This document shows positions 17,471-25,396 of a DNA stretch of 64,000 bases, piece after piece. The number at the start of each line of letters is the position of its first letter. Position 1 is the stretch's first letter. The position numbers and the translations under genes were made by a program. This stretch comes from an uncultured SAR86 cluster bacterium. GTDB lineage: Bacteria; Pseudomonadota; Gammaproteobacteria; Magnimaribacterales; D2472. Location of the stretch: NCBI GenBank assembly GCA_902512655.1, contig CABXJR010000003.1, positions 3,355 through 67,354 on the forward strand, in the 5' to 3' direction. The notes beneath the pieces were generated by a model that did no database searches, was not told the DNA's origin, and saw only the letters and a list, made by a program, of their open reading frames with translations.

Positions 17471-18147
17471 AGCTTTGCTTTAACCGTTTGTCTATAAAGA
17501 ATGCTAGCTAACTCTTCACCAAATATAGAAGATTGTTGCAACTGAGTATCTGAATCTGACGCAAACCTGTTGTATGCAACAACCGCTGGAATTGCTGCAA
17601 AAAGACCCAAAGCTGTTGCAACTAGTGCTTCCGAGATTCCAGGAGCAACGGCATTAATTGTTGCTTGGGTGGCATCTGAAAGACCTTGAAAAGAATTAAT
17701 AATTCCCCAAACTGTTCCAAAGAGGCCGACATAAGGACTCACTGATCCAACATTAGCCAAAAAAGGAAGATGGCGCATTAGTGACTCCTCCTCTCTAGCC
17801 AAAGATACTCTTATAGCCCTGTTAACACTTTCAAGGTCCTCGATTGTTATTTGCTGATCCTCACTCAGTCTTAAAAATTCTCCAAATCCATGTCTAAAAA
17901 CTCGCAAAGATCCAATTAATTCTTCATTGGGAATTTCATCAATTCCAGCATACAGTTCATTAAGATCTTTCCCTGACCAGAATTCCTTTTCAAATTTCTT
18001 ATTGGCCTCTTTAATTCGGTTTAAATTAAAGTATCTTTCAAAAATAACAATCCATGAAATGATTGAAACCATTAACAATAAAACCATAACAGCTTGAACA
18101 ATCAAACTAGCCTGGAGAAATAAATCTATAACTGAAAAGTCACTCAT
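17467..18147 (-). CDS. tolQ: TolQ (MotA/ExbB family)
   Basis: 226 aa with three TM helices. PYVGLFGTVWGI and ALVATALGL motifs. Confidence 0.93.
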   Translation of the reverse strand: MSDFSVIDLFLQASLIVQAVMVLLLMVSIISWIVIFERYFNLNRIKEANKKFEKEFWSGKDLNELYAGIDEIPNEELIGSLRVFRHGFGEFLRLSEDQQITIEDLESVNRAIRVSLAREEESLMRHLPFLANVGSVSPYVGLFGTVWGIINSFQGLSDATQATINAVAPGISEALVATALGLFAAIPAVVAYNRFASDSDTQLQQSSIFGEELASILYRQTVKAKL

Positions 18148-18148
18148 A

Positions 18149-18565
18149 TTAGTTTTTAAATAATTTTAATAAGCCTAAAGGAAAAGCTTTTGGTTTGCCT
18201 GAGTCATTGTTTATAAAGCAGACTTCCACCTCTCCCTTGCAAATGAGTGTATCATTTTTTGCATTTAAAACAGATTGAAAAAATATAGTTCTTGCTTTGC
18301 TAACCAGCTCAATTTCAGTGCTTACAGTTAAGTCATCTTCTAATACTGCTGAATAGTAATATGAAAGATTAATTGATTTCACAACATAAGACTCATTGCC
18401 TTTAGACATTGCATCTGTTTGAGATAAGTTATTCTCAATTAAAAACTGAGATCTAGCTCTTTCTAAGTATTTAAGATAATTTGCATGGTAAACGACGCCT
18501 TGGAAATCAGTGTCTTCTACGTAAACTCTGCAGTAAAAATTCTTAGACTTGAAACGAGGATTCAT
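18149..18565 (-). CDS. ybgC: Tol-Pal-associated acyl-CoA thioesterase YbgC (4HBT hotdog fold)
   Basis: YVEDTDFQGVVYHANYLKY is the YbgC/4HBT catalytic-Asp motif. The track start at 18574 is TTG; I prefer ATG 18565. Confidence 0.88.
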   Translation of the reverse strand: MNPRFKSKNFYCRVYVEDTDFQGVVYHANYLKYLERARSQFLIENNLSQTDAMSKGNESYVVKSINLSYYYSAVLEDDLTVSTEIELVSKARTIFFQSVLNAKNDTLICKGEVEVCFINNDSGKPKAFPLGLLKLFKN

Positions 18566-18965
18566 GTTGCTCAATATCTACCTGAAAAAGGTAACGAAGA
18601 ATTTCTACAAAATCTTCCCACATCAAATCAATTGTCATAGGGGAAAAATCGAGTTCTGGAATTAAAGTTCCTGCCAATATTCTGACTTTAATTGGTCGAC
18701 GGTTAAACTTATAGATTAAGGCTGGAAACTCCCCTTCTCCAGTAGCTGCTAGCACTTGATCCCACCAATCTTGAGAAGGTTCAGAGCCATCGCCATATCT
18801 TTTGCATTCCAAACACCATCTTCCTAATTTCAAATCAGGCAATTCTTTTGTTCGCGTTTGCTCTAAAATTCTTTTAACAGGCTGATTTAAACCTAACTGT
18901 TCAACTAAAAGATTGCCAATTTCTCTTTCAAAATTAGCTCCTTTAGTTCTTGAGTTGATCGCCAA
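18543..18965 (-). CDS. Hjc-like PD-(D/E)XK nuclease, putative Holliday-junction resolvase
   Basis: 140 aa. KGANFEREIGNLL ... ELPDLKLGRWCLECK gives E13/E15, D44 and E53-x-K55 in the order seen in archaeal Hjc (KG..ERE / D / E-x-K). TTG start preceded by GAGGA-N6. It occupies the ruvCAB slot between yebC and ybgC. Confidence 0.55.
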   Translation of the reverse strand: MAINSRTKGANFEREIGNLLVEQLGLNQPVKRILEQTRTKELPDLKLGRWCLECKRYGDGSEPSQDWWDQVLAATGEGEFPALIYKFNRRPIKVRILAGTLIPELDFSPMTIDLMWEDFVEILRYLFQVDIEQHESSFQV

Positions 18966-18967
18966 AA

Positions 18968-19705
18968 TTAGTCCTCTACAACAAAGTCCTCAGGAAATTC
19001 AGCATTTGTATGAACCTCCTGAACATCATCAAGATCATCCATAAAATTCATTATTTTTAAAACTTTCTCTGATGCTTCCTGATCTAGTTGAACTAAAGTA
19101 TCTGCTCTCATAGTATTTTCAGCTAATAATATTTCAATATTATTTTTCTTAAATGCCTCTCCAACAGCAGAAAGATTTGCAGGTATCGTAATAATTTCAA
19201 AATAATCTTCAGTAACAGTGAAATCTTCTGCGCCAGCATCTAATGCAATTTCCATAATTTTATCCTCATCATGAGAAAGACTTACGTGCATAACTCCTAG
19301 CTTATTAAAAAGGTAAGCAACTGATCCATCAGTTCCCATATTGCCTCCAAATTTAGAAAAAGCATGGCGAACATCAGCAACTGTTCTATTTCTATTATCT
19401 GTCATCGTCTCTACAAGAATAGCAACGCCATTAGGACCATAGCCCTCAAAAATTAATTCCTCAATAACACCCGTTTCACCTGTTCCAGAACCCTTTTGGA
19501 TTGCGCGCTTGATAGTATCTTTAGGCATATTTGCAGCGTTCGCTTTATCAAGGGCTAATCTAAGCCGAGGATTATCACTAGGATCAGGGCCGCCTTTTGC
19601 TGCAACAGTAATCTCTCTAATCACTTTGGTCCAAACTTTTCCACGAGATGCATCTTGTCTTGCTTTTCTATGCTTAATATTTGCCCATTTGGAATGTCCG
19701 GCCAT
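18968..19705 (-). CDS. yebC: YebC/PmpR family protein
   Basis: 245 aa. MAGHSKWANIKHRK.. is the canonical YebC N-terminus. Lies downstream of aspS. Confidence 0.93.
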   Translation of the reverse strand: MAGHSKWANIKHRKARQDASRGKVWTKVIREITVAAKGGPDPSDNPRLRLALDKANAANMPKDTIKRAIQKGSGTGETGVIEELIFEGYGPNGVAILVETMTDNRNRTVADVRHAFSKFGGNMGTDGSVAYLFNKLGVMHVSLSHDEDKIMEIALDAGAEDFTVTEDYFEIITIPANLSAVGEAFKKNNIEILLAENTMRADTLVQLDQEASEKVLKIMNFMDDLDDVQEVHTNAEFPEDFVVED

Positions 19706-21487: not shown

Positions 21488-21778
21488 TTAAGTTTTTTTA
21501 TCTGAACTTTTGCTTTTAGATTGATCAGTAGTTTTTGTTTTTTCTTTAGGCTGTTTTGATTTTTCATCCTTAGTATCTACTATATTCTTTTTAGAGCCAG
21601 TTTTAAAATCAGTTTCATACCAACCGGCCCCCTTTAACCTAAAAGAAGGAGCAGAAACTAATTTTTTTACCGTTTTTTTGTTACATGCAGGACAGCTTTC
21701 AACAGGATTATCTGAAAGTCTTTGAATTACTTCAAATTGATGCTCACATTTCGAGCATTTATAATCATAAATCGGCAT
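21488..21778 (-). CDS. FmdB-family zinc-ribbon protein with a Lys/Ser-rich tail
   Basis: 96 aa. MPIYDYKCSKCEHQFE...CPACN gives the CxxC...CxxC FmdB signature. Confidence 0.8.
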   Translation of the reverse strand: MPIYDYKCSKCEHQFEVIQRLSDNPVESCPACNKKTVKKLVSAPSFRLKGAGWYETDFKTGSKKNIVDTKDEKSKQPKEKTKTTDQSKSKSSDKKT

Positions 21779-23113: not shown

Positions 23114-24292
23114 TTAGATCCTCTCAATAATTGTTGCATTAGCAGTTCCGCCACCCTCACATATTGCTTGCAAACCATACCTTCCATTTGTTCTTTCAAG
23201 TTCATGCAGCAATGTTGTCATTAATTTAGCTCCAGTTGCTCCTAAGGGATGACCTAGAGCCATTGCTCCACCATTAACATTTAATTTAGCTATGTCGGCT
23301 TGTAACTCAATAGCCCAAGATAGAGGGACAGGAGCAAAAGCTTCATTTACCTCATAAAGATCAATGTCATTAATTTTTAAATTAGTAGCTTTTAAAACTT
23401 TGTGAGAGGCTGGTATTGGTCCACCTAGCATCATTATCGGGTCGTCACCAACAACACTAATCCCAACAATCCTTGCTCTTGGATCAGCTTTTACTTTTTT
23501 AAGCCCCTCATCGTTACATATCATAAGTGCGGCTGCGCCATCTGTAATTTGGCTTGCATTACCAGCGGTTATCACGCCGCCTTCAGTAACTGGGTTCAAA
23601 CCTGATAGAGCTTCAAAACTTGCATCATATCTAATACCCTCATCATTTAGAACCATATCAGTTTTTCCTTCAACATTTTTCGCTTGTACAGGAAGAATCT
23701 CTCTATCAAAATACTTACCTTCAACAGCTGCAGCTGCTTTTTGATGACTGCTTAAAGCAAACTTATCAAGATCTTCCCTGGACAAATTCCATTTTTCTGC
23801 CATCAGCTCTGCGCCAGTAAATTGTGAAAAGAAAATACCCGGATATCTTTCTTTCATACCATCTGAATCAAATGGCAGACCGTGACCTGCCTCATATCCA
23901 TCTTTAATGCTTGCACCAATTGGTACCATAGACATTACCTCCACCCCTCCACCAATTACAACATCTTGAGTTCCAGACATTACAGCTTGAATTGCAAAAT
24001 GAATAGCTTGTTGAGATGAACCACATTGTCGATCCACTGAAGTTCCTGGAACAGATTCTGGTAGGCCTGAAGCAAGAACAGCATTTCTTGCGACATTACC
24101 GGATTGAGCTCCGACTTGGTCAACGCATCCAAATATAACGTCGTCAATTAGCGCTGGATCAATGCCTGACTGATGAACAAGCTCATCCAAGACTTTTGCA
24201 CCAAGATCGGCTGGGTGCCACTGACTTAAACTTCCGTTTTTCTTTCCTCCAGCTGTTCTAACTGCTGAAACTATATACGCATTATTTGACAT
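23114..24292 (-). CDS. Acetyl-CoA C-acyltransferase (thiolase)
   Basis: 392 aa. Active-site Cys in VDRQCGSSQQA, NEAFA, GHPLGATG and CEGGGTANA. Confidence 0.9.
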   Translation of the reverse strand: MSNNAYIVSAVRTAGGKKNGSLSQWHPADLGAKVLDELVHQSGIDPALIDDVIFGCVDQVGAQSGNVARNAVLASGLPESVPGTSVDRQCGSSQQAIHFAIQAVMSGTQDVVIGGGVEVMSMVPIGASIKDGYEAGHGLPFDSDGMKERYPGIFFSQFTGAELMAEKWNLSREDLDKFALSSHQKAAAAVEGKYFDREILPVQAKNVEGKTDMVLNDEGIRYDASFEALSGLNPVTEGGVITAGNASQITDGAAALMICNDEGLKKVKADPRARIVGISVVGDDPIMMLGGPIPASHKVLKATNLKINDIDLYEVNEAFAPVPLSWAIELQADIAKLNVNGGAMALGHPLGATGAKLMTTLLHELERTNGRYGLQAICEGGGTANATIIERI

Positions 24293-24356: not shown

Positions 24357-25364
24357 TTATTTCTTAGCTGTTTTATTCACTGATGGAATATAAGCTTTTC
24401 TAATTTCCTTTACTAGACTGTCTCTAATCTTAGTGTTTTCTTTTAAGAATTTACTCGCGTTTACCTTACCTTGACCAATCTTTTCGCCGTTATGGCTGTA
24501 CCAAGACCCAGATTTTTCAACTAATTCAAGCTTTTGACCTAATTCTAATATCTCACCCTCTGTATTAATTCCCTCTCCATACATGATTTGAAACTCAGCC
24601 TGCTTGAAAGGAGGAGAAACTTTATTCTTAACAACTTTTACTCTAGTTTCATTCCCAACAACTTCTTCGCCTTCTTTAACAGCGCCTATACGTCTAATAT
24701 CTAGACGAACCGAAGAGTAAAATTTTAAGGCATTACCCCCGGTAGTTGTCTCAGGGTTACCAAACATAACTCCAATCTTCATTCTGATTTGATTAATAAA
24801 TATAACCATTGCATTGGAGCGCTGTATGTTACCTGTAATTTTTCTTAAAGCTTGTGACATCAAACGAGCCTGAAGACCCATATGATGGTCACCCATATCT
24901 CCTTCAATCTCTGCTCTAGGTGTTAGAGCGGCTACAGAGTCTACTACAATCAAATCTACACTTCCGGATTTAACAAGCATATCTGTTACCTCCAATGCTT
25001 GTTCTCCTGTATCAGGTTGAGAGAGCAACAGTTCATCCACATTCACGCCTAATTTTTCAGCATAATTTGGATCAAGTGCATGTTCAGCATCAATAAATGC
25101 TGCAGTACCGCCAGCTTTTTGACATTCAGCAATAGCTTGGAGTGTTAATGTTGTTTTTCCAGATGATTCCGGTCCAAAGATCTCCACAACCCTTCCCTTG
25201 GGTAGGCCGCCAATACCTAGCGCTATATCTAAGCCAAGTGAACCTGTAGAAACTGATGGCATATCTACAATTTCTCTATCTCCCATTTTCATAACAGTTC
25301 CTTTGCCGAACTGCTTTTCAATTTGGGATAAAGTCTCGTTTAAGTTTTTTTCTTTATCTGACAT
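24357..25364 (-). CDS. recA: Recombinase RecA
   Basis: Walker [10 protein letters not shown] and canonical RecA sequence throughout. The track start at 25370 is TTG; ATG 25364 sits 6 nt after AAGGAG. Confidence 0.96.
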
Positions 25365-25376
25365 AATCAACTCCTT

Positions 25377-25396
25377 TACTGTATATTTGTACAGTA
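25377..25396. promoter_or_regulatory. LexA (SOS) box upstream of recA
   Basis: TACTGTATATTTGTACAGTA is a perfect CTGT-N8-ACAG palindrome close to the gammaproteobacterial consensus. It abuts the recA SD and a TATAAT on the minus strand (25398-25403). Confidence 0.8.

What the first reader, a model, noticed from the sequence alone, without database searches (positions are those of the whole stretch)
18543..18965. Hjc-like PD-(D/E)XK nuclease occupies the exact slot of ruvC-ruvA-ruvB
In Pseudomonas-type gammaproteobacteria the order is aspS-yebC-ruvC-ruvA-ruvB-ybgC-tolQRAB-pal-cpoB. This window keeps every flanking gene in that order. Between yebC (stop 18968) and ybgC there is only one 140-aa ORF. 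It reads KGANFEREIGNLL...ELPDLKLGRWCLECK...PALIYKFNRRPIKVRI. That gives E13/E15, D44 and E53-x-K55, followed by a beta-strand-like segment. This is the same order as archaeal Hjc resolvases (KG..ERE, D, E-x-K). The ORF is tightly embedded in the operon. It has a TTG start 2 nt after the yebC stop, a GAGGA-N6 SD inside the yebC 3' end, and a ~23-nt overlap with ybgC. This looks like in-situ non-orthologous displacement of the RuvABC resolvasome by a minimal restriction-fold resolvase, alongside a retained recA and LexA box.
Basis: partly seen in the sequence, partly recalled or inferred. Interest (0 to 1): 0.7.

Follow-up and report, generated by a model that had tools for sequence, protein, structure and literature searches.

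The report
Hjc-like nuclease in SAR86's ruvCAB slot
SAR86 marine bacteria have lost the usual RuvABC machinery for cutting recombination junctions, and a small phage-type nuclease built like the archaeal resolvase Hjc sits exactly where ruvC-ruvA-ruvB normally lie and is conserved like a housekeeping gene, so it has probably taken over junction cutting.

Summary
Window 18543-18965 (-) encodes a 140-aa protein wedged between yebC and ybgC-tolQRAB-pal-cpoB in a SAR86 genome.

**What the protein is.** It belongs to Pfam PF24608 (PDDEXK_15), a mostly phage-borne family. An AlphaFold model (pLDDT 92) has archaeal Hjc resolvases as its top 14 PDB matches. All seven residues essential in Pyrococcus Hjc have identical counterparts in X, and five are invariant family-wide.

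**How well it is conserved.** The gene holds the same slot in all 61 SAR86 species genomes found, and in a second clade only about 55% identical. It has a conserved start 2 nt after the yebC stop. Its dN/dS is about 0.04, equal to aspS and yebC.

**Whether RuvABC is gone.** Published marker tables (Ramfelt 2024) show RuvA, RuvB, RuvC, RadA, RecN and MutS/L absent from the closed SAR86 isolate genome and, by the authors' statement, from 732 environmental genomes.

**Conclusion.** The in-situ displacement reading is supported.
- The gene is phage-derived.
- It is not a Pfam Hjc member.
- It can replace only RuvC, not the RuvAB motor.

Junction cleavage itself is untested. RuvX is present and RecG status is unknown. 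No searchable paper links these facts.

The parts
18543..18965 (-). X: 140-aa PD-(D/E)XK nuclease (Pfam PF24608 PDDEXK_15; Hjc-like fold); putative Holliday-junction/branched-DNA resolvase
   Evidence: ORF. Pfam 30.2 bits against a gathering score of 27. phrog_244, E 4e-11. AF2 pLDDT 92, pTM 0.86. Foldseek top 14 are Hjc. dN/dS 0.036.
18927..18929 (-). Codon E13, the first catalytic acid (equivalent to P. furiosus Hjc E9). The adjacent R14 corresponds to Hjc R10.
   Evidence: Invariant in 55/55 family members. Aligned to Hjc E9. Hjc mutagenesis is cited in PMC10956419.
18834..18836 (-). Codon D44, catalytic aspartate of the PD motif (P43-D44; equivalent to Hjc D33)
   Evidence: Invariant 55/55. 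GAT read directly. Aligned to Hjc D33.
18801..18809 (-). Codons E53-C54-K55, the E-x-K catalytic motif on strand beta-2/3 (equivalent to Hjc E46-V-K48)
   Evidence: E53 and K55 are invariant 55/55. They lie in strand E50-57 of the model and align to Hjc E46/K48.
18972..18976 (-). GAGGA Shine-Dalgarno-like element inside the 3' end of yebC, 6 nt upstream of the TTG start of X
   Evidence: Read directly. Purine-rich GAGG/GGAG elements are seen at the same place in most of the printed sample of 11 orthologous loci.
18968..19705 (-). yebC (TACO1/YebC family), the upstream gene. Its stop lies 2 nt before the start of X. It is the canonical operon partner of ruvC.
   Evidence: Pfam E 1e-54. 51% identical to E. 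coli YebC. yebC-ruvC operon linkage is documented in PMC3403352 and seen in E. coli L004. RNA-derived contigs span the yebC/X junction.
18149..18574 (-). ybgC-like 4HBT thioesterase, first gene of the tol-pal cluster. It overlaps the 3' end of X by 23 nt (ATG 18565) or 32 nt (TTG 18574).
   Evidence: Pfam 4HBT_2, E 1e-13. Coordinates. The same adjacency is present in the orthologous loci.
24357..25370 (-). recA (retained recombinase), about 5.4 kb upstream in the same neighbourhood
   Evidence: The ORF translation has the RecA sequence. Pfam RecA_N/RecA_C hits fall on the orthologous genes.
25379..25394 (.). Perfect palindromic LexA (SOS) box, CTGTATATTTGTACAG, immediately upstream of recA
   Evidence: It is the only exact match to CTGT-N8-ACAG in the window. 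Matches with up to 1 mismatch are not enriched, so the significance rests on position only.

Best explanation
X is a domesticated, phage-derived PD-(D/E)XK endonuclease with an Hjc-type active site. It serves as the cellular resolvase for Holliday junctions and other branched DNA in SAR86 (order Magnimaribacterales).

Proposed history. In an ancestor of the order, the ruvC-ruvA-ruvB block between yebC and ybgC-tol-pal was replaced in place by this single gene. It inherited the operon context and translational coupling to yebC: its start is 2 nt after the yebC stop, and its 3' end overlaps ybgC.

Proposed mechanism, by analogy with Hjc. The protein is probably a homodimer that binds four-way junctions made by RecA, which is retained and SOS-boxed. 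It would make paired nicks using a metal centre formed by E13, D44 and E53 together with K55, with DNA contacts from R14, R32 and K86.

Branch migration is no longer provided by RuvAB or RadA, both absent. It must come from RecA itself, from RecG if present, or from spontaneous migration.

Shown: the ORF, its family and fold, conservation of the catalytic residues, purifying selection, order-wide synteny, and the absence of ruvABC (from published tables). Inferred: dimerisation, junction specificity, and that it is the enzyme compensating for RuvC.
For: Family and fold:
- PF24608 scores above threshold, and all 55 diverse relatives hit it.
- The AF2 model has pLDDT 92 with an alpha-beta-beta-beta-alpha-beta core.
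- Foldseek PDB ranks 1-14 are all archaeal Hjc (A. fulgidus 2wcw, best E 4e-4; P. furiosus 1gef, TM 0.59; ST1444), with probabilities 0.92-1.00.
- hhalign against Pfu Hjc gives 86% probability, E 5e-6, over 74 columns.
- The HMM search against PDB finds Hjc/Hje as the only nuclease hits, in register.

Active site:
- The seven residues essential in Pfu Hjc (E9, R10, R25, D33, E46, K48, K81; PMC10956419) align to the identical residues E13, R14, R32, D44, E53, K55, K86.
- E13, R32, D44, E53 and K55 are invariant in 55/55 family members. R14 is kept in 46/55. K86 is K or R in 53/55.

Functional gene:
- dN/dS is 0.036, against aspS 0.059, yebC 0.052 and tolQ 0.058.
- A start codon occupies the same position in 60/61 loci while changing among TTG, ATG and GTG.
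- RNA-derived contigs cover the gene and span the yebC junction.

Slot:
- aspS-yebC-X-ybgC-tolQ-tolR is found in 61/61 GTDB species loci, including a complete chromosome, CP097973.1, and on 1.1-Mb contigs.
- The same slot holds in a second clade where AspS and YebC are only 53-58% identical to the window's.
- yebC-ruvC operon linkage and the RuvABC-YbgC-Tol neighbourhood are documented (PMC3403352). E. coli shows aspS-yebC-ruvC-ruvA-ruvB.

Loss of the usual system:
- The RuvA_N, RuvA_C, RuvB_C, RuvC, RadA, RecN, MutS and MutL markers are absent from the closed HIMB1674 genome and from the SAR86 genomes tabulated (PMC11582366 Table S1). The exceptions are explained.

Family role in phages:
- Homologs sit in replication and recombination modules, next to exonuclease VIII/RecE-like genes, SSB, a Sak4 annealase, a ligase and primase-helicase.

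Precedent:
- An archaeal Hjc restores repair to E. coli lacking RuvC (review PMC10956419).
Against: - No member of PF24608 was found with biochemical data. The 'Holliday junction resolvase' names in PHROGs, IMG and UniRef are predictions.
- TM-scores to Hjc are modest (0.43-0.59) and Foldseek E-values are weak (best 4e-4). X itself does not hit Pfam Hjc.
- PD-(D/E)XK nucleases with the same motif include restriction enzymes (3ndh is the next hit) and RNA nucleases.
- YqgF/RuvX (PF03652) is present in SAR86 and has reported resolvase activity in Mycobacterium (cited). It could be the resolvase instead.
- RecG, RecQ/TopoIII and RusA status in SAR86 could not be determined (one search found nothing).
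- The stored copy of Table S1 shows only 47 of 732 genomes, and the only RuvB marker in it is the C-terminal domain.
- Gene position is guilt by association. YebC is nowadays viewed as a translation factor rather than a Ruv regulator (my own knowledge, not tested here).
- The RNA evidence is low-depth, and DNA carry-over cannot be excluded.
Confidence: 0.65

Rival explanations
1. X is a structure-specific or sequence-specific DNA nuclease with another housekeeping role, such as processing of stalled forks or flaps, or nucleoid or restriction-like surveillance. Holliday junctions in SAR86 would then be handled by RuvX/YqgF, by RecG-type reversal or RecQ-TopoIII dissolution, or would rarely form.
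For: - RuvX (PF03652) is retained in SAR86, and RuvX resolvase activity is reported in Mycobacterium (reference).
- Phage resolvases are typically promiscuous on branched DNA (abstract of PMC3864405).
- The next fold neighbours after Hjc are type II restriction enzymes (3ndh, 8rpx), and one family member hits Mrr_cat.
- SAR86 also lost RadA, RecN and MutS/L, which suggests recombination may be reduced overall.
Against: - All seven Hjc-essential residues are kept, including the DNA-binding R32 and K86.
- The top 14 structural hits are Hjc, not restriction enzymes.
- The gene sits precisely in the ruvC position and is order-wide.
- There is no adjacent methyltransferase or defence gene.
- recA, recF, recO and recR are retained, so junctions should still form.
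- E. coli YqgF mainly acts in rRNA maturation (my own knowledge).
Confidence: 0.2
2. X acts on RNA, or in a YebC-linked translation or ribosome process. On this view its co-transcription with yebC reflects a shared non-DNA function, and the loss of ruvCAB from the same place is coincidental.
For: - X is tightly translationally coupled to yebC in 60/61 loci.
- RNA contigs span the junction.
- The PD-(D/E)XK fold includes tRNA-splicing and cap-snatching RNA endonucleases, which appear far down the Foldseek lists.
- YebC/TACO1 is a translation factor (my own knowledge; eukaryotic TACO1 is noted).
Against: - RNA nucleases score far worse than Hjc (probability <=0.25 against 0.92-1.00).
- Phage homologs lie in DNA replication and recombination modules with no yebC nearby.
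- ruvC, a DNA enzyme, normally shares the same coupling with yebC.
Confidence: 0.07
3. X is a selfish or decaying phage remnant, or a toxin-like nuclease, that happens to be inserted there and has no host function.
For: - The family is overwhelmingly phage-borne: 154 IMG/VR hits and 38 phage genomes.
- Nearest non-SAR86 relatives are on phage-sized contigs.
Against: - dN/dS is 0.036, equal to essential neighbours.
- The position is fixed in 61/61 species and in a clade about 55% diverged.
- There are no other phage genes, integrase or att-like features around it.
- No viral contig carries a copy more than 49% identical to X.
- SAR86 genomes are streamlined at 1.1-1.6 Mb, so useless genes should be lost.
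Confidence: 0.03

Closest known systems
Archaeal Hjc / Hje Holliday-junction resolvases (Pfam PF01870; PDB 1gef, 2wcw, 1hh1, 2eo0, 1ob8)
   Same: - Closest solved fold, taking ranks 1-14 in PDB.
- Same size class (about 120-140 aa).
- Same N-terminal K-G-x3-E-R-E helix motif, then D, then E-x-K.
- All seven mutagenesis-defined essential residues of Pfu Hjc are identical in X.
- An Hjc can substitute for RuvC in E. coli.
   Different: - X does not reach any score against the Pfam Hjc model. Only 3 of 55 relatives give weak hits.
- TM is only 0.43-0.59.
- X has a longer insert between helix 1 and the D-strand, and a long C-terminal helix (116-137).
- X is bacterial and phage-borne, not archaeal.
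- No PCNA-interaction context.
- Dimer geometry is unknown.
Pfam PF24608 PDDEXK_15 / PHROG phrog_244 phage proteins (for example Roseobacter phages CRP-701/406/811, Klebsiella phage vB_Kpn2-P2, Providencia PSTCR4, E. coli Skure-like phages)
   Same: - X is a bona fide member.
- Same invariant G9, E13, R32, D44, E53, K55.
- BFVD top structural matches have TM 0.74-0.78.
   Different: - Phage copies are <=49% identical to X. They lie in phage replication and recombination modules.
- The SAR86 copy is a vertically inherited chromosomal gene in a housekeeping operon.
- The PHROG label 'RusA-like' is not supported by fold or Pfam.
- I found no experimental work on any member.
RecU (Pfam PF03838) of Firmicutes/Mollicutes, the classical non-orthologous replacement of RuvC
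   Same: - A PD-(D/E)XK-fold resolvase replacing RNase-H-fold RuvC in a whole bacterial lineage.
   Different: - No sequence-profile match.
- RecU is not in the top 50 with the better model.
- RecU lineages keep RuvAB, and recU is always distant from ruvAB, linked instead to a PBP gene.
- SAR86 lost RuvAB as well, and the new gene lies in the old ruvCAB position.
RuvABC resolvasome (RuvC PF02075, RuvA PF01330/PF07499, RuvB PF05491)
   Same: - Same genomic address (after yebC, before ybgC-tol-pal) and the same presumed pathway step downstream of RecA.
   Different: - Unrelated fold (RNase H-like against restriction-endonuclease-like).
- No branch-migration motor.
- No tblastn similarity.
- RuvABC markers are absent from SAR86.
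RusA (Pfam PF05866) and YqgF/RuvX (PF03652)
   Same: - Both are alternative small bacterial or prophage resolvases.
- RusA is also phage-derived and can suppress ruv defects.
- RuvX is present in SAR86.
   Different: - X has no Pfam hit to either.
- Neither fold appears among X's structural matches.
- RusA and RuvX use different catalytic architectures.

Membership tests
PD-(D/E)XK nuclease superfamily | Core alpha-beta-beta-beta-alpha-beta fold | tested here: met
   The AF2 model (pLDDT 92, pTM 0.86) has H5-24, E45-47, E50-57, H65-74, E80-87, E93-97. All significant PDB matches are PD-(D/E)XK enzymes.
PD-(D/E)XK nuclease superfamily | Catalytic motif E ... (P)D ... (D/E)-x-K, conserved across relatives | tested here: met
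   E13, P43-D44 and E53-C-K55 are present. E13, D44, E53 and K55 are invariant in 55/55 sequences with 27% mean column identity.
Pfam PF24608 (PDDEXK_15, phage putative PDDEXK endonuclease) | Score at or above the curated gathering threshold | tested here: met
   30.2 bits against a cut-off of 27, E 5e-7, residues 4-96. 55/55 relatives match, best 1.7e-19. phrog_244, E 4e-11.
Archaeal Hjc (Pfam PF01870) | Match to the family HMM at or above the gathering score | tested here: not met
   No PF01870 hit for X at E<=1. Only 3/55 relatives hit weakly, best E 0.002. The PDB sequence-profile search gives Hjc at E 0.08-1.9 only.
Archaeal Hjc (Pfam PF01870) | Hjc fold as the nearest structural neighbour | tested here: met
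   Foldseek PDB ranks 1-14 are all Hjc (probabilities 0.92-1.00, best E 4.2e-4, TM 0.43-0.59). hhalign gives 86% probability.
Archaeal Hjc (Pfam PF01870) | Residues essential for Hjc catalysis and DNA binding (Pfu E9, R10, R25, D33, E46, K48, K81) | tested here: met
   They align to the identical residues E13, R14, R32, D44, E53, K55, K86 (alignment; residue list from PMC10956419).
Archaeal Hjc (Pfam PF01870) | Homodimer that introduces paired nicks specifically in four-way junctions | not testable with these tools
   Only monomer prediction was available, and no biochemistry.
RecU (Pfam PF03838) | HMM match, a stalk region, and linkage to a PBP gene with RuvAB retained | tested here: not met
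No Pfam hit. The genomic context differs and RuvAB is absent.
RusA (Pfam PF05866), the label carried by phrog_244 | RusA HMM match and RusA fold | tested here: not met
   No RusA hit in Pfam at E<=1. No RusA structure among the listed Foldseek matches (top 50). The PHROG name appears to be a transferred functional label.
In-situ non-orthologous gene displacement of ruvCAB | The position between yebC and ybgC-tol-pal is the ancestral address of ruvC(-ruvA-ruvB) | tested here: inconclusive
   Supported by literature: yebC-ruvC share an operon in about half of RuvC organisms, and YbgC, TolQ and TolB are the next STRING neighbours of RuvABC (PMC3403352). E. coli shows aspS-nudB-yebC-ruvC-yebB-ruvA-ruvB. 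The Pseudomonas-type full order is recalled from memory, and the immediate sister lineage of SAR86 could not be inspected.
In-situ non-orthologous gene displacement of ruvCAB | The displaced genes are absent from the whole genome | tested here: met
   Absent from the 64-kb window and from all +-7-8 kb loci. Genome-wide absence comes from the published CheckM marker table for the closed HIMB1674 genome and other SAR86 genomes (PMC11582366). Caveat: this is literature evidence. Only 47 of 732 columns were readable, and the only RuvB marker is its C-terminal domain.
In-situ non-orthologous gene displacement of ruvCAB | The newcomer performs the displaced function | not testable with these tools
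   Requires junction-cleavage assays and complementation.

The most novel reading that the evidence does not exclude
SAR86, one of the most abundant bacterial lineages in the surface ocean, runs homologous recombination with a minimal toolkit: RecA, RecFOR and a single phage-derived Hjc-type resolvase, with no dedicated junction motor (RuvAB and RadA are gone). The whole RuvABC resolvasome would then have been swapped, at its own chromosomal address, for a 140-aa stand-alone enzyme captured from a phage recombination module. That would be a bacterial counterpart of the archaeal solution and a natural experiment showing that RuvAB is dispensable in a free-living gammaproteobacterium.
Probability: 0.35. 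Interest if true: 0.8.

Novelty: new variant of a known kind. Interest (0 to 1): 0.66.

Why it matters
RuvABC is regarded as the near-universal bacterial junction-processing system. The textbook exception, RecU in Firmicutes, keeps RuvAB and lies elsewhere in the genome. Here a free-living, globally dominant gammaproteobacterial order has lost RuvA, RuvB and RuvC, as well as RadA, RecN and MutS/L. It carries in their exact place a phage-family nuclease with an archaeal-type active site, conserved as tightly as aspS.

If X is the resolvase, several things follow:
- An uncharacterised Pfam/PHROG family found in many phages gains a defined function.
- It gives a clean case of a phage gene being domesticated into a core operon.
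- It shows what the minimal recombination apparatus of a streamlined bacterium looks like.
- It bears on how recombination and mutation rates shape SAR86 population structure.
- It explains part of the 'missing marker genes' that make completeness estimates for SAR86 genomes too low.

The question is directly testable, because a SAR86 isolate (HIMB1674) and simple E. coli complementation assays exist.

Tried and rejected
- NCBIfam and a single-sequence PDB search gave nothing.
- Literature searches for SAR86 with ruvC or Holliday junction, and for PDDEXK_15, returned zero papers. A search for streamlined, marine, ruvABC and absent found nothing relevant.
- I could not test directly for ruvA/B/C, recG, recQ, rusA or priA in a complete SAR86 genome. 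Supplement searches for RecG, RecQ, RecB, PriA, LexA and RecJ found nothing.
- The broad alignment A2 was too diverse for a viral-contig scan. P0144 as a single query found no viral locus.
- The YbgC row of the dN/dS table is invalid because of a start-offset error of mine, and I ignore it. The ybgC-overlap tally failed for most loci (non-ATG starts). Overlap or abutment is instead read from the tblastn coordinates.
- 'RusA-like' (the PHROG label) and RecU membership were considered and rejected on profile and fold evidence.
- The prophage-remnant reading was rejected on selection and synteny.
- Enrichment of LexA boxes in the window is not significant. Only the exact box upstream of recA is meaningful.
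- A homodimer or junction-bound model could not be built with the tools.
Full report
**1. The observation**

The window is AT-rich (34.6% GC). Its closest relatives are SAR86-cluster single-cell and metagenome genomes, up to 99% protein identity for the gene in question. On the minus strand, 18543-18965 is a 140-aa ORF (here called X).

- X starts with TTG at 18963-18965, 2 nt after the TAA stop of yebC (18968-18970). A GAGGA lies at 18972-18976, six bases upstream of the start.
- X ends with TAA at 18543-18545, inside the start of the ybgC-like thioesterase gene. The overlap is 23 nt from ATG 18565 or 32 nt from TTG 18574.
- The surrounding order is aspS, yebC, X, ybgC, tolQ, tolR, tolA, tolB, pal, cpoB.
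- recA lies about 5 kb upstream, preceded by the only exact CTGT-N8-ACAG box in the window (25379-25394).
- tblastn with E. coli RuvA, RuvB and RuvC finds nothing in the 64 kb, while YebC is found at 51% identity.

**2. A real gene under strong constraint**

- X has 571 relatives at E<=1e-3 in the word-indexed protein collection. An exhaustive profile search finds 624 clusters at 50% identity.
- A scan of one genome per GTDB species found 61 loci, all SAR86 or unnamed marine Gammaproteobacteria, including the complete chromosome CP097973.1.
- All 61 show aspS-yebC-X-ybgC-tolQ-tolR wherever the contig extends that far. None has a ruv gene within 7 kb.
- At the position homologous to the TTG start, 60 of 61 loci have a start codon, and it varies: TTG 27, ATG 18, GTG 15. 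In 46 loci it lies exactly 2 nt after the yebC stop. This fixes the start and shows that the tight coupling is conserved.
- Median dN/dS of X against the window copy is 0.036. The values for neighbours are aspS 0.059, yebC 0.052, tolQ 0.058 and tolR 0.027.
- Searching with the most divergent chromosomal relative (P0122) revealed a second large clade of 136-138-aa proteins. Their contigs carry cinA-recA-proS-aspS-yebC-X-ybgC-tolQRAB-pal-cpoB.
- In those lineages AspS and YebC are only 53-58% identical to the window's, about as far as E. coli YebC is. X is 54-60% identical.

X therefore behaves as a vertically inherited core gene across a deep clade.

Marine metatranscriptome contigs cover X, and three of them span the yebC/X boundary. 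Depth is low and DNA carry-over cannot be excluded.

**3. What the protein is**

- Pfam places X in PF24608, 'PDDEXK_15, phage putative PDDEXK endonuclease' (30.2 bits, cut-off 27). PHROGs places it in phrog_244 (E 4e-11).
- In an alignment of 55 diverse members (27% mean column identity) the invariant columns are G9, E13, R32, D44, E53 and K55.
- The first AlphaFold model, from a SAR86-only alignment, had pLDDT 81.6. The second, from the diverse alignment, reached pLDDT 92.0 and pTM 0.86, with the classical alpha-beta-beta-beta-alpha-beta nuclease core followed by a hairpin and a long C-terminal helix.
- Against PDB, ranks 1-14 are all archaeal Holliday-junction resolvases: A. fulgidus Hjc, Sulfolobus ST1444 and P. 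furiosus Hjc. Probabilities are 0.92-1.00 and the best E-value is 4e-4. Type II restriction enzymes follow.
- TM-scores are modest (0.43-0.59), so this is a related fold rather than a close copy.
- A profile-sequence comparison with P. furiosus Hjc gives 86% probability over 74 columns. An HMM search of PDB sequences finds Hjc and Hje as the only nucleases, below significance but in the same register.
- In that register, the seven residues that mutagenesis showed to be essential in P. furiosus Hjc (E9, R10, R25, D33, E46, K48, K81; review PMC10956419) correspond to the identical residues E13, R14, R32, D44, E53, K55 and K86 of X. Family-wide conservation is 55/55, 46/55, 55/55, 55/55, 55/55, 55/55 and 35/55 (53/55 counting Arg).
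- X does not reach the Pfam Hjc model. Only 3 of 55 relatives touch it weakly.

So X works like an Hjc on all the evidence I can compute, but it is a member of the separate family PF24608, not of PF01870. It is not RecU and not RusA, because neither profile nor fold matches. The 'RusA-like' name attached to phrog_244 is a functional label, not a structural one.

**4. Where the family lives**

- Outside SAR86 the family is mainly viral. 38 deposited phage genomes have a copy at 26-41% identity.
- At least 154 IMG/VR contigs have one, the best at 38-49% identity. None resembles the SAR86 clade closely.
- The nearest non-SAR86 clusters sit on 45-65-kb contigs, some from the 0.1-0.22 um Tara fraction, and some are named 'Holliday junction resolvase' by their sources.
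- Where neighbours are annotated, the gene lies in the replication and recombination module:
  - In Roseobacter phage CRP-701 it is beside a second PD-(D/E)XK nuclease, SSB and primase-helicase.
  - In Klebsiella phage vB_Kpn2-P2 it is near primase, RNase H, a ligase, a Sak4 annealase and a Cas4-type exonuclease.
  - In the closest viral contig it is directly after an exonuclease VIII/RecE-like gene and near a primase-helicase.

This is the context in which phage junction-resolving enzymes are usually found. It makes a phage the probable donor of the SAR86 gene.

**5. Is RuvABC really gone?**

I could not scan whole SAR86 genomes myself. Ramfelt et al. [quoted passage not shown] They also report that 27 of the 28 are systematically absent from 732 environmental SAR86 genomes.

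- Their Table S1 names the missing markers: RuvA N- and C-terminal domains, RuvB C-terminal domain, RuvC, RadA, RecN, MutS domain I and MutL C-terminal domain, among others. RecF, RecO, RecR and YqgF/RuvX are present.
- In the 47 genome columns that the stored file preserves, Ruv markers appear in only four genomes. Three of these are 3.5-3.9-Mb Pseudohongiellaceae that the authors excluded from SAR86.
- The fourth is a MAG with 4.3% contamination whose sister genomes score zero.
- The genera MED-G82, MED-G78, SAR86A and D2472, to which several of my loci belong by name, are in GTDB family D2472, the paper's 'Suzuki' family. The genomes with X and the genomes lacking Ruv therefore overlap.

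The paper's text never mentions ruv or a resolvase, and no paper in the library combines SAR86 with ruvC or Holliday junction.

**6. The slot**

- Zhang et al. 2012 (PMC3403352) found yebC and ruvC in one operon in about half of RuvC-containing bacteria. They list YebC, YbgC, TolB and TolQ as the strongest genomic associates of RuvA/B/C.
- E. coli shows aspS-nudB-yebC-ruvC-yebB-ruvA-ruvB.
- The same paper notes that RecU, the classical RuvC substitute, is always distant from ruvAB and that RuvAB is kept. SAR86 differs on both counts.

**7. Mechanism and rivals**

The best-supported reading (about 0.65) is that X is the cellular resolvase for Holliday junctions and branched DNA. It would act as an Hjc-like dimer on junctions made by the retained, SOS-boxed RecA, with RecFOR loading. 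The RuvAB motor has been lost without a like-for-like replacement.

The main rival (about 0.2) is that X is a branched-DNA or other DNA nuclease with a different role. Junctions would then be dealt with by RuvX, RecG or dissolution. RuvX is present, and the RecG/RecQ status is unknown. An RNA or YebC-linked role (about 0.07) and a selfish remnant (about 0.03) fit the evidence poorly. About 0.05 is left unassigned, for explanations I did not consider.

**8. Novelty and verdict**

PD-(D/E)XK resolvases replacing RuvC are a known kind (RecU, Hjc). The protein family is already in Pfam and PHROGs with predicted names, and the absence of Ruv markers in SAR86 sits in a published supplementary table.

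What appears to be undescribed is the connection: an order-wide, in-place swap of the entire ruvCAB block for a phage-family, Hjc-type nuclease in a free-living gammaproteobacterium that also lacks RadA.

The caveats are that the function is inferred, that the protein is not a Pfam Hjc member, and that only RuvC, not RuvAB, can have been functionally replaced.

Noticed in passing
window 25379-25394: A perfect palindromic LexA box, CTGTATATTTGTACAG, lies immediately upstream of recA (24357-25370, -). It implies a functional SOS regulon in a genome that has lost RuvABC, RadA, RecN and MutS/L. It is the only exact match in the window.
   Followed up: partly
literature: PMC11582366 Table S1 (not window coordinates): Besides Ruv, the closed SAR86 genome lacks markers for RadA, RecN, MutS, MutL, YbaB/EbfC, ClpB, RF3, PrmA/PrmB, LolA/LolD and BioB, and also the specific TIGR/Pfam models for FtsY and the Ffh signal-peptide-binding domain. 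The last two are surprising for essential SRP components and may reflect divergent sequences rather than true loss.
   Followed up: no
PHROGs phrog_244; phage records H5, H9, H11, H13: The label 'RusA-like Holliday junction resolvase' is being propagated to many phage genomes for proteins that are PD-(D/E)XK/Hjc-like and show no RusA profile or fold match. It is an annotation misnomer.
   Followed up: yes
L150 5939-6451 (protein P0122): One member of the second chromosomal clade is called as 170 aa instead of 136-138 aa, with an unrelated C-terminal tail ending 42 bases before the contig end. It is probably a frameshift or read-through into the ybgC overlap region rather than a real extension.
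   Followed up: no
window 23114-24292 versus L001 2558-5838 and L151 3789-3805: The interval between recA and proS is variable. The window has one thiolase gene. Other D2472-type genomes add DUF3604, Band_7 and a small ORF. The second clade has nothing there but has cinA upstream of recA.
   Followed up: no
window 21488-21778 (-): A 96-aa Zn-ribbon protein (Zn_ribbon_8/FmdB-like, CxxC...CxxC) with a long Lys/Ser/Thr-rich tail is conserved between aspS and the divergently oriented proS in all SAR86 loci examined.
   Followed up: no
window 19426-19512 (inside yebC): One RNA-derived contig in run X1 skips 85 nt (depth 2.2, single contig). It is likely an assembly or strain artefact, because 85 is not a multiple of three.
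   Followed up: no
window 17686-17721 (inside tolQ): A 33-36-nt stretch is matched by several otherwise unrelated contigs in three runs, with loose ends on both sides. It is a very conserved TolQ/ExbB motif shared with other taxa in the samples, not evidence about this organism.
   Followed up: no
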